DNA of 64,000 nt. Origin: a virus (lineage: Duplodnaviria; Caudoviricetes). Under the pieces are notes generated by a model. It ran no database searches, was not told the DNA's origin, and worked only from the letters and a program-made list of their open reading frames with translations. The stretch covers positions 128,001 to 192,000 of IMG/VR virus record IMGVR_UViG_3300043754_000129. The stretch is one strand, 5' to 3'. Below, in pieces: positions 39,536 to 48,723 of the stretch (position 1 is its first letter; each line of letters starts with the position of its first letter). The translations under genes were made by a program, and so were the position numbers.

Positions 39536-42415
39536 ATGTCCACAACTTGCACCACACTGACGTACCCGTTTGACCCGACGGGTTCGTTGGTGTCGAACCT
39601 GATTCAAGGGGAGCAGCAGCAACTGGTTGCGCAGAACTTCCGTAACCAGCACTTCATCGTTCCGAAGGCAGCGCCGTTCTTCGCCGATACGCTGACCATC
39701 TCCTATCAGGATACCTCGGGTACGATTTCCACGCTCCAGGAAGGCGTGGATTACTACGTCACGCATTGGTTCATCAGCGCAAGCCGTGCTTGTGCCATGC
39801 GCGTGTACGGTTCGATCAGCTTCATCAATACCGCCTTGGCCGGTATCGTCTCGCTCTCCTACCAAACGGTCGGTGGCGAATGGACGGTGTCCGCCCAGCA
39901 GATCGCCACGATCATGGCGGATGTGGTGGACAACCCGCGCATCACGTCGTGGGAAGAAGTCAGTGGTACGCCCTATGCGTTCCCGCCCGAAGCACACGCT
40001 TGGGATGTGAACGACATGGTCGGTATGGATAGCGTGGTGACCGCCATCGGCGCCGTGACGTCTGCTCTGCAATCGAGTGGCAGCACGGGTCTGGCAGCGC
40101 ACATTGCAAACCATAACAACCCACACGTGGTGACCGCTGCGCAAGTCGGGCTGGGCAATGTCCAGAACTATGCGATGGCGCAGAATTCGGATGCTGTGGC
40201 CGGTACGTCGACGACGCTCTATATGTCGCCGGCTACGACCGCTGCGGCCATCCAGTCGCTCTCGCTCGCGCCGCTCACGGCTCACATTGCCAATCACAAC
40301 AACCCGCACGTTGTCACCGCGGCCCAAGTGGGTCTCGGCAACGTCGCCAATTACGCGCCGGCCCAGAACACCGATGCGCAAGCGGGTACGAGCACCACGC
40401 TGTACATGACCCCGGCCACCACCATGGTCGCGATCAACAGCACGGTTGGCTCGGCGTTGAACGCTCACATCTTGAACACCAACAACCCGCACCAAACCAG
40501 TGCGGCACAGGTCGGTCTCGGGAACGTGGCAAACTTCGGTGTCGCACAAAACAGCGACGCTATCGCCGGTACGGCTAACAACCTGTACATGACGCCGGCA
40601 GCCACGGCTGCGGCCATCGCCAACCAAGGTTCGAATGCGGTCCTCCAGGCTCACATTACGAACTACAGCAACCCTCACCAAGTGACGGCAGCTCAGGTTG
40701 GTGCGTACACCACGACGCAGGTCAATAACCTGCTCACGGGTTACGTGACGACGACGGGTACGGCAGCCAACTCGACCGAACTGGCAGGCTTGACGGTGGC
40801 GCAGCTCACTGCGCAAATCCTGCAAGGTACGGCGGCGAACGCAACGGAGTTTGGTGGCCTGACGCCGGCTCAGTGGCAAGCAGCGTTGCAAGGTGGTACG
40901 GCAAGTGACTCGCAGATGTTCGGTGGCATGACCCCGACGCAGTGGGACCAGTACATCGCCAACGCCACGGTCGCGAACGCGCTCGAACTGAATGGCCTCA
41001 CGGTCTGCCAGTTGACGGCTCAGATCCTCTCGGGCACCGCAGCCAATGCGACGCTGGCATACGGTGAAACGAAAGCGCAGCTGACCGCTGACATCCTGGC
41101 GGGTACGGCAGCCAACGCTACGCTCGCTTATGGACTGACGCAGGCACAGCTGACCACGGCGATTCTCGCTGGGACGGCATCGAACGCCAGCGCAGTCTAC
41201 GGCATGACGCAAGCGCAGTTGACGACGGCCATCACGACCGCAGTCAACAACCAGTTGCAGGGCAGTGAACTCGTGCTCGCGCAGGAGAACATTCCGGCCG
41301 CGACTGACACGACGGATCCGACGCTCTGGACGCCGATTGCCCAGATGTTCTTGCCGGGTACGACGGGGCTGTCGACCTTCCCGGACATGCAGCTGATTGT
41401 CACGGGTGGTGATGCAACGACGGGTACCGATTCCGGCACGTGGTTCATCCGCATGACGGCACGGGAAACGGGTCAAGCGCACAACGTGAGTGTGCAGGTC
41501 ATCAGCTTCACGGGTGAGCTCGTGGGCACGACGCAGTTTGGCTGGACGGTCGACACGACCACCTTTGCCAATGCGCCGTTTGCAACGCTCTGGGCAGAAA
41601 CGCCGGGCGCTGCGAACCAGATGTCGGTCAATGTGCTCTCGGGCTACAACGACAACTTCATCACGGCCATCGCAGTGCAGAACACCGCACCGGCTGGCAT
41701 TACGTACGCTACGGCTGACACCTTCGCCACGGTGTCGGAGATGAACAACATGGTCAGCCAACTGACCACGGCGTTCCAGGCAGTGGTGAATGCAGTCCAG
41801 GGTGCCGCCGGTACGTCGTTCAATGCGAACGCCGCTCCGAGCCAACTCACGCTCTCGAACAGCAACTTGACGCTGACGGGTACGGCCACGGGCTGGTACG
41901 ACGACACGGCCAACATCGGTCTCACGTCCGGTAAGGGTTACTTCGAAGTCACGGCCAACACGCTCGCCCATGGCGCAGCGATCGGTATCGCGAATTCGAC
42001 GGAAGCACTGACGGCGGAAATCGGTAGCGACACCAACGGCATCGCGCTCGTGAACAACATCACGGCCGGCACGAAGGGCATCTACTACAACGGTGCTTAC
42101 GTGAAGACGTCGGCTTCGGGCTTCGCTCAGGGCTCGACGGTGGGCGTGGCAGTGGACATGACCAACAAGCTGATCTGGTTCTACAACCCGACGACGGGCA
42201 AGTGGAACGAAGACGTGATCGCCAACCAGAACCCGGCAACGGGCACGGGCGGTATCTCGATCGCGACGATCATGACCTCCGGTAGCAATACGGTGGACGT
42301 GTATCCGGCAGCTGGTGTGGACGCAAGCGGTGAATCGCTCACCTTGAACGGTGGTGCTTCGACGTTCGTCAACGCGATCCCCTCGGGCTTCTCGAGCTGG
42401 AACTCGCTGGCATAA
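39536..42415 (+). CDS. Tail fibre protein 1 (phiKZ gp131-family N-terminus, NPH repeats, C-terminal SPRY-like domain), 959 aa
   Basis: N-terminal YPFDPTGSLVSNLIQGE anchor. Four HxxNxxNPHxxTAAQVG repeats, about seven tandem 23-aa A(A)NxTxxxGLTxAQLTAxILxGT repeats, and an SPRY-like domain from about 41819. Confidence 0.85.
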   Translation: MSTTCTTLTYPFDPTGSLVSNLIQGEQQQLVAQNFRNQHFIVPKAAPFFADTLTISYQDTSGTISTLQEGVDYYVTHWFISASRACAMRVYGSISFINTALAGIVSLSYQTVGGEWTVSAQQIATIMADVVDNPRITSWEEVSGTPYAFPPEAHAWDVNDMVGMDSVVTAIGAVTSALQSSGSTGLAAHIANHNNPHVVTAAQVGLGNVQNYAMAQNSDAVAGTSTTLYMSPATTAAAIQSLSLAPLTAHIANHNNPHVVTAAQVGLGNVANYAPAQNTDAQAGTSTTLYMTPATTMVAINSTVGSALNAHILNTNNPHQTSAAQVGLGNVANFGVAQNSDAIAGTANNLYMTPAATAAAIANQGSNAVLQAHITNYSNPHQVTAAQVGAYTTTQVNNLLTGYVTTTGTAANSTELAGLTVAQLTAQILQGTAANATEFGGLTPAQWQAALQGGTASDSQMFGGMTPTQWDQYIANATVANALELNGLTVCQLTAQILSGTAANATLAYGETKAQLTADILAGTAANATLAYGLTQAQLTTAILAGTASNASAVYGMTQAQLTTAITTAVNNQLQGSELVLAQENIPAATDTTDPTLWTPIAQMFLPGTTGLSTFPDMQLIVTGGDATTGTDSGTWFIRMTARETGQAHNVSVQVISFTGELVGTTQFGWTVDTTTFANAPFATLWAETPGAANQMSVNVLSGYNDNFITAIAVQNTAPAGITYATADTFATVSEMNNMVSQLTTAFQAVVNAVQGAAGTSFNANAAPSQLTLSNSNLTLTGTATGWYDDTANIGLTSGKGYFEVTANTLAHGAAIGIANSTEALTAEIGSDTNGIALVNNITAGTKGIYYNGAYVKTSASGFAQGSTVGVAVDMTNKLIWFYNPTTGKWNEDVIANQNPATGTGGISIATIMTSGSNTVDVYPAAGVDASGESLTLNGGASTFVNAIPSGFSSWNSLA

Positions 42416-42438
42416 CAACAAGTAGTTGACTTCCTTTT

Positions 42439-42497
42439 AGAGGCCCAAGGCTATCCGCTAAGCAATTTTATGCTTAGTGGGGCCTTGGGCCTCTTTT
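42439..42497 (+). terminator. Long hairpin terminator/attenuator between tail fibre genes 1 and 2
   Basis: AGAGGCCCAAGGC...GCCTTGGGCCTCT outer stem, CTAAGCA/TGCTTAG inner stem, then TTT. Confidence 0.6.
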
Positions 42498-42519
42498 GCT
42501 GGTTACTCAGGAATTAACA

Positions 42520-43992
42520 ATGAGCACATCGAACTTAACGCTTCCGCTGGATCCGACGGGTTCGGCGTCTGCGAACTTGATTCAAAACGAAGCCCATGCA
42601 ATCGGGGCGACGGGCACGCGGGCATTCCCCGTGCATTACGGTCTGTTCTTCCGCGACTCGGTGTCCGTGGTCGACGTGGCAACAGGCAAGACCCTCACGG
42701 AAGGTACGCAGTACTACCCGACTCAGATGGACCTGGCAGCGTCCCTCCAGTACGGGCAAGAGTTGGATTCGGTCATCATCATCACCGACACCACGGTCTC
42801 GGCCAATGTGACGGTTTCGTACCAAGCGCTTGGTGGTGTGAACAGTCTGAACTCGCAAGAAGCGCAGACTGAGATCAACGCGCTGAATATCGACGACGCC
42901 GTCGTGGCGTGGGCGGACGTGACGAATAAGCCCAAGGACTATCCGCCGGGCGCGCACTATCACCAAGCCGGTGACGTGTTTGGCCTCGAGTACATCGTGG
43001 CGGCTATCAATCGCTTGGCGGCTGCAATCACGGAAGGCCAGGGCGCTGCACAAAACGCACTGATGCAGTATGCGGAAGATGTCGTGGCGGAGATGGCAGG
43101 GATCGTGGCAACGGGGCAGGCAACGCTGAATGCCCACTTCACGGACTACACGAATCCGCACAAGACCACCGCAGCTCAGATCGGAGCATACACGACTGAG
43201 CAAACGACGGCAGCGATCTCCGCGGAAACGCTGAGCCGTCAGCAAGCGGACACGGCGATTACGTCCACGCTCAATACGCACATCGCCAACCACAACAACC
43301 CTCACCAGCTCACGCCAGCTCAGGTGGGTGGGATGACGCAGGCTCAGTCCGATGCGGCAATGGCTGCAATGTCGGCGGCACTGGAAGTGAACATCCAGGC
43401 CAACGAGACGACTCAGAACGCGCACATCACGAACTACAGTAACCCGCACCAGGTGACTGCTGCCCAAATCGGCACGTGGACGGTCTCGCAGATTACCGCG
43501 GCGATCTCGAACTCGGTCGGCACCATCCAGAACCAGGTCAATGCGTACGAAGCGCTGCTCGACTCGCACCTGGCCAACACGAGTAATCCCCACAAGGATA
43601 CCGTGACCAACATTGGTACCTGGACGCAGACGGCCATCCAGTCGGGGATCGTGAATCCGTACACGGCACACGTGACGAATACGGCCAACCCGCACCAGGA
43701 CGTGTACTCGAACATCGTGACGTCGAACGTGGATAGCTCGGGCGTCTATAGCGCCACGACCATGAGTACGGCGATTACGAACGCGTACAACAGCATCATC
43801 GCGCAGATCTCCTCGCTGAACAGCACGGTGTCAAGCCACACGGGTAACTTCAATAACCCGCACGGCGATAACGTCTCGAACACGGGTGGTGCCTACACGG
43901 CCGGCCAGCTGGCTTACGCGATCAGTCTCTTGCAGGGTCCGGGTGGGAGCGCGGCGAACGCGATCAACTACCTGGCGAGCATCCACAACTAA
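42520..43992 (+). CDS. Tail fibre protein 2 (paralog; six NPH repeats, no evident C-terminal head)
   Basis: AGGA RBS. LPLDPTGSASANLIQNE N-terminus. Six HxxxxxNPH repeats. Confidence 0.8.
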   Translation: MSTSNLTLPLDPTGSASANLIQNEAHAIGATGTRAFPVHYGLFFRDSVSVVDVATGKTLTEGTQYYPTQMDLAASLQYGQELDSVIIITDTTVSANVTVSYQALGGVNSLNSQEAQTEINALNIDDAVVAWADVTNKPKDYPPGAHYHQAGDVFGLEYIVAAINRLAAAITEGQGAAQNALMQYAEDVVAEMAGIVATGQATLNAHFTDYTNPHKTTAAQIGAYTTEQTTAAISAETLSRQQADTAITSTLNTHIANHNNPHQLTPAQVGGMTQAQSDAAMAAMSAALEVNIQANETTQNAHITNYSNPHQVTAAQIGTWTVSQITAAISNSVGTIQNQVNAYEALLDSHLANTSNPHKDTVTNIGTWTQTAIQSGIVNPYTAHVTNTANPHQDVYSNIVTSNVDSSGVYSATTMSTAITNAYNSIIAQISSLNSTVSSHTGNFNNPHGDNVSNTGGAYTAGQLAYAISLLQGPGGSAANAINYLASIHN

Positions 43993-44003
43993 GAGTAGCT
44001 GAC

Positions 44004-45410
44004 ATGATTCCAAACATCTATCGTTACCCGCTGGATTTGACGGGTACCAGTCGGAGCAATTACGTCACCGGGGAGAACCAGAGCATCGGCACGTCCACGG
44101 TGCGCGCAATTGCGCCGAACGCAGGTGCCTTCTTCGGGAAGTCGATTCAGATTCTGGATCGGGCCTCGAACCTGACGCTGAACGATACGCAGTACTCGTT
44201 CCAGTTTCTGCATGAAGAGCTTACCATCAAGTCGGGTCTGGAAGTGTGGGGCATCTTGCTCATCACGGATCCGTCGGTGTCGGCCAATATCTCGCTGTCT
44301 TATCAGGCCGTGGGTGGACCGATCGCGGGCAACTACTCGACGATGGCGGCTGAGATTGCCACGCTCCAGTTGGATTCGCGTGCGGTGGCGTTTCGCAACA
44401 TCACGGGCTTTCCGGATACGGTCAAGCCGGTGCCGCACATGCACTGGGTGGGCGACACGTACGACTGGGACTACATCGTCAATGCGCTGGAGCTCTGCCT
44501 GAACGCGATGACGCTCTCGGAAGCCGCGTCGTACGACACGGTGCTCACGTACATCGATCAGCAGAAGGGTCTGTACACGACCCAGATCGCAGGCTTGGCG
44601 GCGCAGCTTGCCGCGCACATTGCCAACTACAACAATCCGCACCAGACGACGCTTCTTCAGGTCGACGCGTATTCGAGCAGCCAGGTCGATAGCCTGATTG
44701 CCACCGAGACGACGAACCGGATTGCGGCAGATGCGGTGGTGAACAATGCAATCCAGGCGCATGCAACGTGTTACCACAACCCGCACGTGGATACGGCTGA
44801 CGACATCGGCGGCTACAGCACGAGCGAAACGGACGCGAACCTGAATGCAGTGAAGGCCGCACTCAATGCGCAGATGACGTCGGATGCCAATGCGATGGCG
44901 GCCCACATCGGCAACACGAACAACCCGCACAAGGTCACGCTCGATCAGCTGAATGGTTACACCACGCAGCAGATCAACACCGCGATCTCGAACGGCGTGT
45001 CGCCTGTGGCTACGCAGCTGGCCAATGACACCACGCAGATGAACGCGCACATTGCCAATACGAACAATCCTCACCAAACGACGATTGCCCAGATTGGTGC
45101 ATGGGACAATGCGAGCATCAACACGCTCAACACGAACGTGGCGAATCACATCGTGAACACGAGCAACCCACACGGCGTAACGGCCGCGCAGGCGAGCACG
45201 TGGACGTCGGCCCAGATCTCGGCCCAGATCGCCAACGCGTACACCACGCCGGTGACGACTGCGCTCAATAGCCAAGCCAACGTGATCAACGGCCACATCG
45301 GCAACCGGAGCAATCCGCACAATGTGACCGTGGCACAAATCGGTGGGTGGACGTATGCGCAGTGGCTGGCCACGGGTCAGGCTCAGCAGAACGCGAACTC
45401 GTACCACTAA
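44004..45410 (+). CDS. Tail fibre protein 3 (paralog; six NPH repeats, no evident C-terminal head), 468 aa
   Basis: YPLDLTGTSRSNYVTGE N-terminus. Six NPH repeats; the ORF ends shortly after the last one. Confidence 0.8.
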   Translation: MIPNIYRYPLDLTGTSRSNYVTGENQSIGTSTVRAIAPNAGAFFGKSIQILDRASNLTLNDTQYSFQFLHEELTIKSGLEVWGILLITDPSVSANISLSYQAVGGPIAGNYSTMAAEIATLQLDSRAVAFRNITGFPDTVKPVPHMHWVGDTYDWDYIVNALELCLNAMTLSEAASYDTVLTYIDQQKGLYTTQIAGLAAQLAAHIANYNNPHQTTLLQVDAYSSSQVDSLIATETTNRIAADAVVNNAIQAHATCYHNPHVDTADDIGGYSTSETDANLNAVKAALNAQMTSDANAMAAHIGNTNNPHKVTLDQLNGYTTQQINTAISNGVSPVATQLANDTTQMNAHIANTNNPHQTTIAQIGAWDNASINTLNTNVANHIVNTSNPHGVTAAQASTWTSAQISAQIANAYTTPVTTALNSQANVINGHIGNRSNPHNVTVAQIGGWTYAQWLATGQAQQNANSYH

Positions 45411-45425
45411 AGGAAGAAGAGAAAC

Positions 45426-47912
45426 ATGTCAACCTTGACTTTGCCGCTTGACCCCACAGGGAAGGCGACAACGAACGACATCACGGGGGAGCTCCAGAAC
45501 ATCGGAACCAACCCGGTACGAGCGTTTGCCACGAACTATGGCGCGTTCTTCGCCTCGAGCCTGGTCCTGGTGGATACGGCTTCGGGGAAGACCCTGACGT
45601 CGAGCCAGTACTTCACGGCGGTGGTCTATGACTTGGCGACGGCAAAGTACGGCGTCGCAGTCAACGACACGATCGTGGGGATTGTGGTCATCACCGATGC
45701 AACGGTCGGCAATACGATCCGCGCCAGCTATCAGGCGTTGGGTGGTGGCTATCAGACGTCGCTCAGCGCGCTCGCCAATGACCTGATTGGTTATGAGCCG
45801 GCATCGCGTCCGACGGCGTGGCCGAGTGTGATCGACGCACTCTCGACGACCCCGGCTTCGCAGGCCCTGCACGACGCGGGTCAGGCAGGCATGATCACGT
45901 TTGAATACGTGGTGCATGCGATCGACCGGCTCATGCAGTTGGCGATCATGGGCGACCCGATCTCGCAGATGGCGGTGCAGGCCTACGCGAATGCGATGGA
46001 GACGAATCAGCTGGCAGGTTTGAACGCCGTGCTGGCCAATCTCTACACGCACGAAGCGAACCAGGCCAATCCGCACCGGGTGACGGCAGCGCAACTGGGT
46101 GCTTATACCACGGCCCAGCAAGATGCCGCGATCCAGGTCGAAGCCACCAATCGCACGACGGAAGACAACCAGCTGACGGCGACGCTTACCGCCCACACGA
46201 CGAACTACAACAACCCCCACCAGGTCACACTGGCGGAGCTGGGGATGTACTCGTCGGCGACGGTGAACAGCAACATCACGGCCGCGCAAACCGCGCTTCA
46301 GGCGACGTTGGCGACCAATGCTGCTGCGGTCGGTACGCACATCAACAACTTCAACAATCCCCACAACGACACCACGACGAACCTGGGGACGTTGACGGTT
46401 TCGCAGATCCAGACGGCCATCGCTAATGCCACCACGGCGGTTGCGAATAACGCCACGACTGCGAACACGACGTTGAGCTCGCACACGGGCAACTTCAACA
46501 ATCCGCATGCGGTCACGCCGGCGCAGATTGGTACGTGGACGGCGAGTGCTCTGACGACGTTGCAGACGACGCTCACCAACCACATCTCGAATTACAGCAA
46601 TCCGCACCATGTGAACATCTCGCAGATTGCGGGCCTGACGGTGAACCAGTTCAACGCAGCTTTGTCGGCAGCCCAGACGAGCATGCAGAACTACTACAAC
46701 AGCAACTACAGCGCCATTGTCAACCACATCAACAACGGGAATAACCCTCACGGGGATTCCGCGCAGGCGATGGGGGCACTGGGGCCGTGGAACCTGGGGA
46801 CACTCGAAAACGATTTGAACTCGTGGCAGACGTCGATCAACAACTCGGGCTATCCGTACTCCGAGCGCGGTACGCAGTACTTCGACGTGAACTACACGGG
46901 CGCGATTCAGGCGAACTTCCAGCGCGACGTCTTGATCTATCGGGGCACCTCCCCAACGATCACGGGCGGGTGCTACACCTGTACCGGTGCCTTCCAGCAA
47001 GCCGGTGCACCTGGTGGTGGGGTGATCATCGGCTTCTTCCGTTCGGGCAATGTGCTCACGCTCATTATCCACAACGGCTCGCTCGATGGCACGACCTTCT
47101 CGACGAGTAACGGCGATAACGTCACGCTCTCGAATGGTTGGTCGGACAGTTGGTTTGGTTCGGCAGGCAACCTGTACACGGCGTACGGGGCCAACAGTCA
47201 GTTGGGCCAGGCATCACGTGATGGTTACTGGCACGCCACGGGCTTCTCGGGTCAGGGTCAACCGCCGGCCGGTTACGTGAACGGCGCGGCTCCGCCTCCG
47301 CCGACTTCGGGCGGTGGTCAAACTTGCCACAACATCAGCTGCTTCATTGCGGGCACCAAGGTCCTGATGGCGGACTACAGCTGGAAGGAAATCCAGTTGC
47401 TCGAACCGGGTGACATGCTCATGTCGCCGACGGGTCCGGCGAAGATGCTGCGCCTGCACCAGGCTATCCTGGGTACGGGTCGCGCGATGCTGACCATGAA
47501 GGAAGATCCGTCCACGCAGTGGGTGGCCGATCACCCACTCTGGTCGCGTAACGCAGAAGGCAAGCAATGGTGGTGGTCGGGTGACGCACCGTACATGCGT
47601 TCGGAAGTCGATCAGGGCTTGACCGCGGGTCTGAAGGACATCCACTCGGTGTTCGAAGACGAAGTGGAATACGCTCACCTCGATGGCTTCGTGAAGCGTA
47701 CGATCGTCGAGACGCCAGCCGATCCGAACACACCGGTGTACATTCCGGTGCTCGAAGGTCCGCCGTGTATCGTCAACGGCTATGTGGCTGCGGCGTTCTT
47801 CAACGAGTGGGAGTACGACTACACCCAACTCGATTGGCTCAAGCACGCTCAGGCTCACAAGGCTGGTGCGCTCATTGCCAACGCAGAACTCCGGGCGATT
47901 GCGCCTAAGTAA
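45426..47912 (+). CDS. Tail fibre protein 4 with a putative receptor-binding region and a C-terminal Hint domain, 828 aa
   Basis: LPLDPTGKATTNDITGE N-terminus, six NPH repeats, an aromatic/Gly-rich domain, a PPPPTSGGG linker, then CFIAGTKVLMADYSWKEIQLLEPGDMLMS (Hint block A) starting at 47340. Confidence 0.85.
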   Translation: MSTLTLPLDPTGKATTNDITGELQNIGTNPVRAFATNYGAFFASSLVLVDTASGKTLTSSQYFTAVVYDLATAKYGVAVNDTIVGIVVITDATVGNTIRASYQALGGGYQTSLSALANDLIGYEPASRPTAWPSVIDALSTTPASQALHDAGQAGMITFEYVVHAIDRLMQLAIMGDPISQMAVQAYANAMETNQLAGLNAVLANLYTHEANQANPHRVTAAQLGAYTTAQQDAAIQVEATNRTTEDNQLTATLTAHTTNYNNPHQVTLAELGMYSSATVNSNITAAQTALQATLATNAAAVGTHINNFNNPHNDTTTNLGTLTVSQIQTAIANATTAVANNATTANTTLSSHTGNFNNPHAVTPAQIGTWTASALTTLQTTLTNHISNYSNPHHVNISQIAGLTVNQFNAALSAAQTSMQNYYNSNYSAIVNHINNGNNPHGDSAQAMGALGPWNLGTLENDLNSWQTSINNSGYPYSERGTQYFDVNYTGAIQANFQRDVLIYRGTSPTITGGCYTCTGAFQQAGAPGGGVIIGFFRSGNVLTLIIHNGSLDGTTFSTSNGDNVTLSNGWSDSWFGSAGNLYTAYGANSQLGQASRDGYWHATGFSGQGQPPAGYVNGAAPPPPTSGGGQTCHNISCFIAGTKVLMADYSWKEIQLLEPGDMLMSPTGPAKMLRLHQAILGTGRAMLTMKEDPSTQWVADHPLWSRNAEGKQWWWSGDAPYMRSEVDQGLTAGLKDIHSVFEDEVEYAHLDGFVKRTIVETPADPNTPVYIPVLEGPPCIVNGYVAAAFFNEWEYDYTQLDWLKHAQAHKAGALIANAELRAIAPK

Positions 47913-47916
47913 GTTG

Positions 47917-47946
47917 AGCCAGGGGGCAACCCCTGGCTTTTATTTT
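47917..47946 (+). terminator. Rho-independent terminator after the tail-fibre cluster
   Basis: AGCCAGGGG-GCAA-CCCCTGGCT followed by TTTATTTT. Confidence 0.8.
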
Positions 47947-47955
47947 GGACACGCC

Positions 47956-48723
47956 ATGAGCTCCCCAACCATCGAAGAGATTCGCATGACCTTCTTCAAT
48001 TACGATAAGCCCTCGAAGCAGATCCTGAGCGATCTGATCTTTGCCTCGAATGGCTTTCGACTTCCCAGCACGGGAGTCACTTACGGTACGCCTGTCGCAG
48101 TCCCGGGTCCCTCGGGCTACTACAGCTACCTGAATACCGGGATCGAGGTGTCGATTCCCTACGCTCCGGGCGTGCAGAACTACGGCAAGCAGACATTCTT
48201 CTACAGCCGGCTGAACCTGGGTAATGCGGCACCCGTGGCGAACGCGGTTCCGATTGTGGTGACAGCCTACCCGACGGACACCTACACGCTGCTCCCCCAG
48301 ATCAATGCCTACTACGGCTTGCAACTGGGTCAGGACGATGTGGTCAATGTCACGTATGCGGACAACACGGCGGACTTCCTCGTGACCGCTGCGGCAGGAT
48401 CGCTTGTCTGGACGCCAGCAACGGCCTTGGACGTCACGACGGTGGTCAGTGGTGCCACAGGTGCTGGTGGTCACGGCACAGGCACACAGGTCGGCTGGAC
48501 GGGTCTGGGACAGGGTTCCAGTGGCGTCGCACCGAGCGATGGAACCTCGGGCGGCGGCAGTGGCTCCGACGGTACGGGTTCCGGTGGCTCGGGCAGTGGG
48601 GGTTCTGGCTCCGGCTCGGGTGGCTCGGGTTCGGACGGCACCGATCCCATCCTCGGCGTGGAGTGGATTCCCAACGGCGAGTCGGGTGTGCAAGACCTCT
48701 CGATTACCACCGACGGCAGTTAA
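47956..48723 (+). CDS. Putative virion protein with a Gly/Ser-rich C-terminal tail (start 47956 or 47986)
   Basis: YSRLNLG...TYTLLPQINAYYGLQLGQDDV resembles a small-domain family common in phiKZ-like virion proteins. It ends in a GSGG repeat tail. Confidence 0.65.
   Translation: MSSPTIEEIRMTFFNYDKPSKQILSDLIFASNGFRLPSTGVTYGTPVAVPGPSGYYSYLNTGIEVSIPYAPGVQNYGKQTFFYSRLNLGNAAPVANAVPIVVTAYPTDTYTLLPQINAYYGLQLGQDDVVNVTYADNTADFLVTAAAGSLVWTPATALDVTTVVSGATGAGGHGTGTQVGWTGLGQGSSGVAPSDGTSGGGSGSDGTGSGGSGSGGSGSGSGGSGSDGTDPILGVEWIPNGESGVQDLSITTDGS

What the first reader, a model, noticed from the sequence alone, without database searches (positions are those of the whole stretch)
47340..47912. Tail fibre ends in a Hint (intein/hedgehog-type) autoprocessing domain that cannot splice
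Seen in sequence: Cys639 of tail fibre 4 starts CFIAGTKVLMADYSWKEIQLLEPGDMLMSPTG (Hint block A) right after a PPPPTSGGG linker. A block-B-like ADHPLW follows, then a block F/G-like VYIPVLEGPPCIVNGYVA, but the terminal His-Asn needed for splicing is missing, and a 35-40 aa tail follows. Established: Hint domains with Cys1 and block-B His but no C-terminal Asn (hedgehog, some BIL domains) perform only the N-terminal thioester step, which leads to cleavage or ligation to another molecule. Inference: the fibre either sheds this domain as an intramolecular folding/trimerisation chaperone (the role S74 peptidases play in other fibres) or becomes covalently modified at its new C-terminus. The tail after the Hint would then act like hedgehog's adduct-recognition region. 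This could be a covalent tailoring route for a receptor-binding protein.
Basis: partly seen in the sequence, partly recalled or inferred. Interest (0 to 1): 0.72.

Follow-up and report, generated by a model that had tools for sequence, protein, structure and literature searches.

The report
Self-processing Hint cap on phage fibre
One tail fibre of this giant phage really does end in an intein/Hedgehog-type (Hint) domain that keeps the residues for the first, bond-breaking step but not those for splicing, and it belongs to a large, unnamed family that caps many unrelated phage fibres; whether it simply cuts itself off or couples the fibre end to something is not yet known.

Summary
Confirmed. 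Residues 639-790 of the 828-aa fibre (window 45426-47912) are a Hint fold. The AlphaFold2 model has pLDDT 95, and VIA-align gives Z 15.7 to a Tetrahymena BIL domain, Z 12-13 to inteins and Z 11.6-12 to Hedgehog. Cys639 superposes on intein residue 1. Ala789-Ala790 take the place of the splicing His-Asn.

The domain belongs to an uncurated family: 336 cluster representatives at 50% identity, E <= 1e-3. In it, Cys1 (125/128), the block-B His (124/128) and a 14-residue extension (to W804) are conserved. Homology starts exactly at Cys1, and the domain nearly always sits at the extreme C-terminus of diverse phage tail-fibre scaffolds.

The last 24 residues are variable and absent from most members, so a Hedgehog-style adduct-recognition tail is not supported.

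Most likely (about 0.55), an N-S acyl shift at Ser638|Cys639 is followed by release of the roughly 190-aa domain, making it a self-removing maturation module. Ligation or cross-linking, and a retained non-cleaving domain, remain open. This clade has Val where the block-B Thr/Ser normally sits.

No paper on such fibre caps was found. Earlier notes of this scan report Hint-capped fibres on other DNA. A sub-family pairs the cap with Cys-rich repeats and a radical SAM maturase.

The parts
45426..47912 (+). Tail-fibre gene 'fibre 4' (828 aa plus stop), a paralogue of three upstream fibre genes
   Evidence: ORF. PHROG tail-fibre and virion-structural hits on residues 4-412. N-terminal 27-43% identity to jumbo-phage fibre proteins. 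Paralogy with 39536-42415, 42496-43992 and 44004-45410.
45426..46760 (+). Conserved N-terminal anchor (aa 1-195) and shaft with six H-x-x-N-x-x-NPH motifs (aa 196-445)
   Evidence: phrog_2163 E 2e-56. NPH spacing 48, 48, 48, 33, 48, shared with fibres 2 and 3. 64-68% identity among orthologues.
46761..47270 (+). Distal 'tip' region (aa 446-615), the most variable folded part and the probable receptor-binding part
   Evidence: 51% mean identity with indels among 10 orthologues. Shared together with the Hint domain by the 422-aa protein P0012. No fold assigned.
47271..47339 (+). Pro/Gly linker and junction (aa 616-638, GYVNGAAPPPPTSGGGQTCHNIS), ending in Ser638 at the -1 position
   Evidence: Sequence. 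The -1 residue is S, T or C in 115 of 128 family members, and there is no conservation further upstream.
47337..47342 (+). Predicted scissile bond Ser638|Cys639
   Evidence: Cys639 superposes on intein or Hedgehog residue 1. Cys is present in 125 of 128 members. Homology among family members starts exactly here.
47340..47795 (+). Hint-fold core (aa 639-790): block A CFIAGTKVLMAD, block B WVADH703PLW, block F/G-like VYIPVLEGPPCIVNGYVAAA
   Evidence: AF2 pLDDT 95.4. Foldseek and VIA-align hits to BIL, inteins and Hedgehog. Profile hits to PDB inteins. Pfam Hint-clan hits in 90 of 105 members.
47532..47534 (+). His703, the block-B histidine
   Evidence: Conserved in 124 of 128 members. Aligned to the HHPYW of the 8w20 Hint region.
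47523..47525 (+). Val700 at the Thr position of the TxxH motif (family Ser 107, Thr 13, Val 8)
   Evidence: Orthologue alignment.
47790..47795 (+). Ala789-Ala790 at the position of the intein penultimate His and terminal Asn
   Evidence: Model residue 158 aligns to the last intein residue in many chains. Codons checked.
47796..47837 (+). Family-specific 14-residue extension FFNEWEYDYTQLDW (aa 791-804)
   Evidence: N793/E794, D798, Y799 and W804 are conserved (W804 in 120 of 128). It lies beyond the range aligned to any Hint structure.
47838..47909 (+). Variable C-terminal tail (aa 805-828), predicted helix
   Evidence: 27% identity among orthologues. Absent from most family members. Helix 173-193 of the model, pLDDT 80-89.
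47916..47939 (+). Intrinsic-terminator-like hairpin plus T-run directly after the fibre stop codon
   Evidence: 10-pair stem, 7 GC. Sequence.
47953..48723 (+). Downstream DUF7941 gene, which travels with the tip+Hint cassette
   Evidence: Pfam DUF7941 E 2e-19. The same family follows P0012 in L005 and lies on the orthologues' contigs. The N-terminal domain resembles a phiKZ outer-baseplate chain, 9xqd_0, Z 8.4.

Best explanation
The last 190 residues of fibre 4 are a C-terminal Hint autoprocessing domain from a distinct, unnamed family.

Shown here:
- The Hint fold.
- Cys639 at the position of the intein or Hedgehog nucleophile, and the conserved block-B His703.
- No His-Asn and no +1 nucleophile, so no splicing and no C-terminal cleavage by Asn cyclisation.
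- A strictly C-terminal position on many unrelated phage fibre scaffolds, with homology starting at Cys1.

Inferred mechanism:
1. After translation, the Ser638-Cys639 peptide bond undergoes an N-to-S acyl shift, helped by His703.
2. The resulting thioester is resolved, most simply by water or a thiol in the reducing cytoplasm.
3. This releases the roughly 21-kDa Hint fragment and leaves a 638-residue mature fibre that ends ...GGGQTCHNIS, just behind the variable tip.

Inferred role: a self-removing maturation module. It would act as a folding or assembly aid, or as a temporary cap for the fibre tip. That makes it functionally analogous, but not homologous, to Peptidase_S74 intramolecular chaperones.
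For: Fold: AF2 pLDDT 95.4. VIA-align Z 15.7 (BIL2, 6y75), 13.0 (C. thermocellum BIL, 2lwy), 12-13 (mini-inteins) and 11.6-12.0 (Hedgehog 1at0/6tyy), with model residues 7..158 matching intein residues 1..last. Foldseek E 5e-6. Profile against PDB: PI-SceI 2.9e-9, 8w20 3.2e-9.

Catalytic residues under selection: Cys1 in 125/128, His in 124/128, Ser/Thr of TxxH in 120/128. Cys639 and His703 are invariant in 10 orthologues of 53-80% identity.

Module boundary at the scissile bond: nothing is conserved upstream of position -3, and conservation is strong from Cys1 onwards.

Position: among 128 full-domain matches, a median of about 8 residues follows the domain.

Carriers are phage fibres:
- PHROG tail-fibre families, collagen, GP38, Collar and GpJ N-termini.
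- A gene after the tail-tip protein in Achromobacter phages JWF and 2-1.
- A gene beside an S74-capped T7-type fibre in Providencia phage PSTNGR1.

Conservation pattern resembles that of cleaved chaperone modules: tip 51% identity, Hint 66%.

Established knowledge (my own): Hint domains with Cys1 and the block-B His but no terminal Asn carry out only the N-terminal thioester step. Examples are Hedgehog and pre-toxin HINT.
Against: No experiment or proteome shows cleavage for any member. Only three cultured phages in the 50,697-record collection carry the family, and I found no virion mass spectrometry for them.

This protein and its close orthologues have Val at the TxxH Thr/Ser position, which may slow the acyl shift.

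Hedgehog-type Hint domains hydrolyse poorly without their nucleophile (my own knowledge), so simple hydrolysis is an assumption.

A flexible Pro/Gly linker separates the tip from the Hint domain, which does not look like a tightly coupled folding template.

Fibres 2, 3 and 4 share one repeat register. phiKZ fibres are hetero-oligomers of such paralogues (PMC13250141). The tip may therefore not be a homotrimer that needs a trimerising chaperone.

Stand-alone Hint ORFs with only 5-12 residues before Cys1 exist. These hint at a role beyond cis-removal.
Confidence: 0.55

Rival explanations
1. Ligation rather than disposal. The Cys639 thioester is attacked by a specific nucleophile, so that the new fibre C-terminus (Ser638) becomes covalently joined to something and the Hint domain leaves. 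Candidate targets are a Lys or Cys of a neighbouring fibre chain or another virion protein (for example the DUF7941 protein), a small molecule or lipid, or a group on the host surface.
For: Precedents among the nearest structural neighbours: Hedgehog transfers its N-terminal part to cholesterol, and the top hit is a Tetrahymena BIL domain from a ubiquitin-like BUBL locus (the BUBL conjugation role is from my own memory).

The family keeps more conserved polar residues than a minimal Hint needs (R686, D694, E727, H751, D798). It also keeps a conserved 14-residue extension lying where a C-extein or adduct-recognition region would sit.

A Cys lies 1-5 residues upstream of Cys1 in this clade, and Cys occupies the -1 or -2 position in about a sixth of family members each (21 and 18 of 128).

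The tip+Hint cassette moves together with a DUF7941 gene.
Against: No acceptor has been identified.

The partner genes differ across the family (DUF7941 in two contexts, radical SAM in others, none in many), so there is no universal acceptor protein.

The extension is short and the last 24 residues are not conserved.

An intrinsic terminator separates the fibre gene from the DUF7941 gene.
Confidence: 0.17
2. Retained domain. The Hint fold stays on the mature fibre as its distal structural or binding domain. Cys639 and His703 would be conserved for another reason, such as a disulfide or metal site with the nearby Cys634/His635, or a latent thioester that is armed but not resolved during assembly.
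For: Val700 replaces the TxxH Ser/Thr in this clade.

AXH and other Hint-like folds serve as binding modules. AXH appears among the weak hits.

Stand-alone Hint ORFs exist.

The domain is the very end of a fibre, which is where receptor contact is expected.
Against: The Hint domain is better conserved than the tip before it (66% against 51%). The same domain caps unrelated fibres from phages with very different genome sizes (contigs from about 8 to 282 kb) and gene contexts. Neither fits a receptor-specific binding domain.

Near-absolute conservation of the N-terminal Cys and the block-B His exactly at the module boundary is the signature of catalysis.
Confidence: 0.18
3. Self-cleaving 'follower' for enzymatic tailoring. 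The Hint domain serves as the handle by which a modifying enzyme recognises the fibre end, and then removes itself, as leader or follower peptides do in RiPP pathways.
For: In 7 loci the Hint cap is directly preceded by (Asn-Cys)n or CxC-rich stretches. It is followed within 0-1 genes by a radical SAM/SPASM peptide-maturase-like gene.
Against: This phage has no radical SAM gene at all. Its pre-Hint stretch has a single Cys (C634), five residues before Cys1, and no repeat. At best this applies to a sub-family, not to this fibre.
Confidence: 0.05
4. Decayed intein, split-intein half or pre-toxin HINT. A selfish element remnant, an N-intein awaiting a partner, or a releaser of a C-terminal toxin.
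For: The best Pfam hit is the intein-associated Hom_end_hint. 8w20, a protein with a Hint region before its C-terminal part, is a top sequence hit.
Against: The fold is complete from block A to the block G position, so it is not a split half.

No homing endonuclease and no C-extein are present.

Only 38 residues follow, which is too few for a toxin domain.

336 diverged cluster representatives (E <= 1e-3) keep the same architecture, with conserved catalytic residues in the 128 full-domain matches examined. This means selection for a function, not decay.
Confidence: 0.03

Closest known systems
Bacterial intein-like (BIL) domains (structures: C. thermocellum BIL 2lwy; Tetrahymena BUBL BIL2 6y75/6tmm)
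   Same: Best structural matches (Z 15.7 and 13.0). Both are Hint folds without an endonuclease. Both sit in variable surface or secreted proteins rather than in conserved enzymes. Both have Cys1 and the block-B His, and autoprocess rather than act as a mobile element.
   Different: Only 12-15% sequence identity. The BIL structures matched here carry a C-terminal Asn (6y75 is a C1A-N143A mutant), whereas this family has Ala/Gly/Ser-Ala at those positions. This family also has its own 14-residue extension and is strictly the last domain of phage fibres. No Pfam or NCBIfam model covers it.
Hedgehog/Hog C-terminal autoprocessing domain (1at0, 6tyy)
   Same: A C-terminal Hint module that starts with Cys-Phe, has the block-B His and lacks the terminal Asn. 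It performs only the N-terminal thioester step, and extra residues follow the Hint fold (Z 11.6-12.0).
   Different: There is no roughly 60-70-aa sterol/adduct-recognition region. Only 14 conserved residues follow the fold, then a dispensable tail. The -1 residue is Ser/Thr/Cys, not Gly. No equivalent of the Hedgehog general-base Asp could be assigned. The carrier is a phage virion protein.
Peptidase_S74 intramolecular chaperone of endosialidases and tail fibres (K1F, T5 pb1)
   Same: A C-terminal module of phage fibres and spikes that is thought, or known, to be removed autocatalytically after assembly. It is conserved while the receptor-binding part varies. In PSTNGR1 the two kinds of cap sit on adjacent genes.
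   Different: Unrelated fold and chemistry: S74 uses a Ser-Lys dyad in a helical trimer, whereas this is a Cys thioester in a Hint beta-fold. There is no S74 hit in this protein. This is a functional analogy only, and it is untested.
Pre-toxin HINT (PF07591) of polymorphic toxins (for example the Hint region of 8w20)
   Same: The sequence profile hit covers blocks A and B (E 3e-9). Both are Hint domains used as single-turnover peptidases in long extracellular filaments (PMC3482391).
   Different: PT-HINT sits before a toxin domain that it releases. Here nothing but a 38-residue tail follows. There is no PF07591 hit for this protein.
Inteins (class 1-3)
   Same: Same fold. Cys1 and the block-B His align residue for residue.
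   Different: There is no C-extein, no His-Asn and no +1 Cys/Ser/Thr, and no homing endonuclease. It is not inserted in a conserved host-protein site and cannot splice.

Membership tests
Hint superfamily (Hedgehog/intein fold) | Hint beta-fold | tested here: met
   AF2 model pLDDT 95.4. VIA-align Z 15.7 to 10.4 against BIL, intein and Hedgehog chains, covering model residues 7-158. Foldseek prob 1.0.
Hint superfamily (Hedgehog/intein fold) | Nucleophilic Cys/Ser as first residue of the domain | tested here: met
   Cys639 aligns to intein and Hedgehog residue 1. Cys is present in 125 of 128 family members.
Hint superfamily (Hedgehog/intein fold) | Block-B TxxH motif | tested here: inconclusive
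   His703 is present and conserved (124/128). The Thr/Ser position is Val700 in this protein and its close orthologues, against Ser/Thr in 120/128 members.
Inteins (protein splicing) | C-terminal Asn (usually His-Asn) for succinimide formation | tested here: not met
   Ala789-Ala790 occupy these positions. The family has G/S/A then A/G/S.
Inteins (protein splicing) | Cys/Ser/Thr at +1 of a C-extein that continues the host protein | tested here: not met
   Residue +1 is Phe791. Only 38 residues follow, and 24 of them are not conserved.
Hedgehog/Hog autoprocessing domain | Hint module followed by a sterol/adduct-recognition region of about 60-70 aa | tested here: not met
   Only a 14-residue conserved extension follows, then a variable 24-residue helix. 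The median family tail after W804 is about 8 residues.
Hedgehog/Hog autoprocessing domain | General-base Asp that activates the incoming nucleophile | not testable with these tools
The conserved acidic residues (D694, E/D702, E727, D798) could not be placed relative to Cys639.
Bacterial intein-like domains, type A | Hint fold in a variable surface or secreted protein, with C-terminal His-Asn but no +1 nucleophile (definition from my own memory of Amitai 2003 and Dassa 2004) | tested here: not met
   Fold and context fit, but His-Asn is absent.
Pre-toxin HINT (PF07591) | Hint domain immediately upstream of a C-terminal toxin domain | tested here: not met
   No domain follows. No PF07591 hit at E <= 10.
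Peptidase_S74 intramolecular chaperone | S74 sequence family with a Ser-Lys dyad | tested here: not met
   No PF13884 hit in this protein. The fold is Hint, not the S74 helical trimer. The analogy is functional only.
Autoprocessing (any Hint) | Cys1-dependent cleavage of the upstream peptide bond | not testable with these tools
   Needs expression of wild type against C639A/H703A, or virion mass spectrometry.

The most novel reading that the evidence does not exclude
The Hint cap is a covalent-coupling device, not a disposable chaperone. It would deliver the fibre's new C-terminus as a thioester that is captured by a defined nucleophile. That capture would staple the fibre chains or another virion protein together, or, most radically, stay armed on the virion and form a covalent bond with a host-surface amine or hydroxyl on adsorption. 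This would be a phage use of Hedgehog/BUBL-type chemistry.
Probability: 0.12. Interest if true: 0.88.

Novelty: new variant of a known kind. Interest (0 to 1): 0.6.

Why it matters
Receptor-binding fibres decide phage host range and are the main target of phage engineering. The only well-known self-removing fibre module is the S74 chaperone.

A second, chemically different and widespread cap would change three things:
- How fibre genes are annotated: the mature protein would be 190 residues shorter.
- How recombinant fibres are designed.
- How fibre ends are interpreted in cryo-EM maps.

The family comprises 336 clusters at 50% identity. It is almost all metagenomic, with only three cultured phages.

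Because the chemistry passes through a thioester, it also opens the possibility of natural protein ligation or cross-linking on virions, and of new compact self-cleaving tags.

The sub-family that joins the cap to Cys-rich repeats and a radical SAM maturase points to enzyme-crosslinked fibre ends.

Tried and rejected
1. Homotrimer test of the Hint domain (complex prediction, 3 copies, alignment A1): score 0.00, verdict 'no answer'. This is neither support for nor evidence against a trimerising-chaperone role.
2. The search for related loci with the full 105-row alignment failed because no stretch was conserved enough. It was repeated with a 10-row sub-alignment.
3. Literature: seven full-text searches combining Hint, intein-like or hedgehog with tail fibre, phage or tailspike found no paper on a Hint domain ending a phage fibre. 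The hits concerned inteins in terminases, RNR or helicases, or polymorphic toxins. The Achromobacter phage papers held in the library contain no proteomics of the JWF or 2-1 protein.
4. A conserved partner gene as a universal acceptor or chaperone: rejected. The JWF downstream ORF is unrelated to DUF7941, and downstream genes differ among loci.
5. Radical SAM tailoring of this fibre: rejected, since the genome has no radical SAM gene.
6. A second copy of the domain in the genome: none.
7. Atlas search with the tip region (aa 446-632): no usable hit. No solved relative of aa 1-640 by sequence.
8. Source names for family members: all 'hypothetical protein'. UniProt-derived names in BFVD say only 'Hint domain containing protein'.
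9. Placing conserved residues around Cys639 in three dimensions: not possible, because model coordinates are not exposed to scripts.
Full report

The + strand ORF 45426-47912 encodes an 828-residue protein. Cys639 is the TGC codon at 47340-47342 and begins CFIAGTKVLMADYSWKEIQLLEPGDMLMSPTG.

On its own the sequence gives only weak, sub-threshold Pfam hits: Hom_end_hint E 0.002 on the first 35 residues and Vint E 0.14. So the case had to be made with relatives and structure.

**A large family**

An exhaustive HMMER search with residues 625-828 found 336 cluster representatives at E <= 1e-3, of which 158 are at E <= 1e-10. I looked at 128 full-domain matches.

| Position | Residue in family (of 128) | This protein |
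|---|---|---|
| First residue of the domain | Cys 125 | Cys639 |
| Next residue | Phe 123 | Phe640 |
| Block B His | His 124 | His703 |
| Three residues after the His | Trp 127 | Trp706 |
| TxxH Thr position | Ser 107, Thr 13, Val 8 | Val700 |

The Val is shared with this protein's close orthologues. Other conserved positions are R686, D694, E727, G785-Y786, D798-Y799 and W804.

Nothing is conserved upstream of position -3, and the -1 residue is Ser, Thr or Cys. The homologous module therefore begins exactly at the predicted scissile bond. The domain is nearly always the end of the protein, with a median of about 8 residues after W804.

**The fold**

- A profile of 105 members hits PI-SceI (2.9e-9), the Hint region of 8w20 (3.2e-9), the Prp8 intein over its whole length (3e-4), a bacterial intein-like domain and Hedgehog.
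- Scanned one by one, 90 of 105 members hit Hom_end_hint, 58 Hint, 30 Vint and 20 Hint_2.
- AlphaFold2 with this alignment gives pLDDT 95.4 and pTM 0.90.
- Foldseek against the PDB returns mostly Hint structures at the top.
- VIA-align gives Z 15.7 (rmsd 2.3, 137 aligned) to Tetrahymena BIL2, 13.0 to the C. thermocellum BIL domain, 12-13 to mini-inteins and 11.6-12.0 to Hedgehog.

Model residues 7..158 align to intein residues 1..last in many chains. So Cys639 is Cys1, and Ala790 sits where the terminal Asn would be. Residues 789-790 are Ala-Ala and residue +1 is Phe.

**The tail**

The 38 residues beyond the fold are of two kinds:
- FFNEWEYDYTQLDW (791-804) is conserved across the family.
- Residues 805-828, a predicted helix, are only 27% identical among ten orthologues and are missing from most members.

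A Hedgehog-like adduct-recognition region of the whole tail is not supported. A role for the short conserved extension is not excluded.

**Who carries it**

The parts before the Hint domain in 88 members match many different PHROG tail-fibre families, collagen repeats, GP38 adhesin, Collar, GpJ and Shufflon_N.

Only three cultured phages in the 50,697-record collection carry the domain:
- In Achromobacter phages JWF and 2-1 it ends the protein encoded two genes after the tail-tip (J/Tal-type) protein. GenBank already calls the JWF protein a 'Hom_end-associated Hint family protein'.
- In the T7-like Providencia phage PSTNGR1 it ends a 317-aa protein encoded next to the gp17-type fibre, and that fibre itself ends in a Peptidase_S74 chaperone.

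IMG/VR contigs from about 8 to 282 kb carry it, and one contig carries it twice. This genome has one copy.

**Local context**

The window is part of a 324-kb jumbo-phage record. Its fibre N-termini resemble those of phiKZ-like and other jumbo phages.

- Four consecutive paralogous fibre genes share the N-terminal anchor and a shaft of H-x-x-N-x-x-NPH motifs.
- Fibres 2, 3 and 4 share the same motif register.
- In phiKZ such paralogues (gp131, 133, 134, 135) form hetero-hexameric fibre bases (PMC13250141).

The oligomeric state of the tip that precedes the Hint domain is therefore uncertain.

Among ten orthologues the tip (aa 446-615) is the most variable folded part at 51% identity with indels. 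The Hint domain is 66% identical, like the structural N-terminus at 68%.

A 422-aa protein from a 35-kb contig shares tip, linker and Hint (42% identity over aa 475-810), and also the downstream DUF7941 gene.

The N-domain of the DUF7941 protein resembles a 150-residue chain of the phiKZ outer baseplate. The match to 9xqd_0 has Z 8.4, which is borderline on this scale, but it covers 138 of 150 residues and is far above the next hit at 4.8. The protein also has a Gly/Ser linker and a conserved C-terminal motif. A strong terminator separates it from the fibre gene.

**Mechanism**

The sequence and fold show a Hint domain equipped for the N-S acyl shift and for nothing after it.

I infer that the Ser638-Cys639 bond is converted to a thioester and resolved, and that the domain leaves a 638-residue fibre. 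The module-boundary conservation, the strictly terminal position, the spread over unrelated fibres and the juxtaposition with S74 caps fit a self-removing maturation module. I put this at about 0.55.

Against it:
- No cleavage has been observed.
- Val700 is present in this clade.
- A floppy linker separates tip and cap.
- The need for a trimerising chaperone is uncertain.
- Stand-alone Hint ORFs exist with only 5-12 residues before Cys1.

The rivals are:

| Rival | Confidence |
|---|---|
| Ligation or cross-linking through the thioester | 0.17 |
| A retained, non-cleaving or latent domain | 0.18 |
| A follower handle for tailoring enzymes (no radical SAM in this genome) | 0.05 |
| An intein remnant, split half or pre-toxin HINT (contradicted) | 0.03 |

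A homotrimer prediction gave no answer.

**Comparison and novelty**

By fold this is a member of the Hint superfamily. It is not an intein, not a type-A BIL, not PT-HINT and not a Hedgehog Hog domain by their defining features (see the membership table). It works most like Hedgehog or BIL N-terminal autoprocessing, and may serve like an S74 chaperone.

No Pfam or NCBIfam model covers it. Source names are 'hypothetical' or 'Hint domain containing'. I found no paper on Hint caps of phage fibres.

Earlier notes of this scan report Hint-capped phage fibres on other DNA, in 45 notes. The follow-ups shown describe modules of about 130-160 residues likened to type-A BIL domains. I did not test whether those are the same family as this 166-residue module without His-Asn.

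I class it as a new variant of a known kind, with interest 0.6.

**Side finding**

In seven loci the 20-45 residues before Cys1 are (Asn-Cys)n or CxC-rich, with 4-12 Cys. A radical SAM/SPASM gene lies zero or one gene downstream. Its SPASM domain scores above cut-off in the four of the six enzymes where it was reported, and its best, sub-threshold matches are thioether-forming peptide maturases (PapB, QhpD, SCIFF and CcpM types).

Loci with no or a single Cys before Cys1 have no such gene nearby. Three loci with short Asn-Cys runs (L015, L017, L020) also lack one among the ORFs examined.

This suggests enzyme-crosslinked fibre ends next to a self-removing cap. It does not apply to this phage.

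Noticed in passing
L007:601-2965; L013:4335-7570; L016:4530-6907; L019:1646-3999; L021:4083-7586; L022 (= Achromobacter phage JWF, L001:5077-8598); L023:1760-4037: In these Hint-capped fibre genes the 20-45 residues before Hint Cys1 are (Asn-Cys)n or CxC-rich (4-12 Cys, for example NCNCDCNCNCS|CFPAG). A radical SAM/SPASM peptide-maturase-like gene lies zero or one gene downstream; its best sub-threshold hits are PapB, QhpD, SCIFF and CcpM maturases. Loci with no or a single Cys before Cys1 lack it, and three loci with short Asn-Cys runs (L015, L017, L020) show none among the ORFs examined. This looks like a RiPP-style thioether cross-linking of fibre ends. It differs from the CXXX-repeat system noted earlier in this scan.
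   Followed up: partly
window 47953-48723 (+): DUF7941 protein. Its roughly 150-aa N-domain resembles a chain of the phiKZ outer baseplate (9xqd_0, Z 8.4). A long Gly/Ser-rich disordered linker follows, then a conserved C-terminal motif DGTDP...(D)WEPNGESG. The gene follows the tip+Hint cassette here, in the orthologues and in an unrelated 35-kb contig (L005). In the Atlas, DUF7941 is also found fused to GP38 adhesin domains.
   Followed up: partly
window 39536-47912 (+): Four consecutive paralogous fibre genes (959, 498, 468 and 828 aa). Fibres 2-4 share six H-x-x-N-x-x-NPH motifs at identical spacing (48, 48, 48, 33/34, then 48-56), while fibre 1 has a 61-62 residue spacing and a SPRY-like end. 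This recalls the phiKZ gp131/133/134/135 hetero-hexameric fibre base and suggests a heteromeric shaft in which only some chains carry distal domains.
   Followed up: partly
L002:3684-6516 (Providencia phage PSTNGR1): A T7-type fibre ending in a Peptidase_S74 chaperone is followed directly by a 317-aa protein ending in the Hint cap. Two chemically different C-terminal caps therefore sit in one host-recognition module.
   Followed up: partly
L033:157-723; L034:1930-2469: Stand-alone ORFs of the same Hint family with only 12 and 5 residues before Cys1 (MSAIEKTDIFGT|CF and MNCNT|CF) and stop codons upstream in frame. In L035 the called 199-aa gene is really the end of a longer open frame that lies after a Shufflon_N gene.
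   Followed up: partly
L013 and L016 (same 109-kb IMG/VR contig): One phage contig carries two different Hint-capped, Cys-rich fibre genes, each with its own radical SAM gene.
   Followed up: no
window 47916-47939 (+): A strong intrinsic-terminator-like hairpin (10-bp stem, T-run) lies four bases after the fibre stop codon. It closes the fibre operon before the DUF7941 gene.
   Followed up: no
L001:5077-6528 and several family members: Shufflon_N (PilV constant region) matches occur in the part before the Hint cap of some fibres. This raises the possibility that some of these ends are exchanged by site-specific inversion.
   Followed up: no
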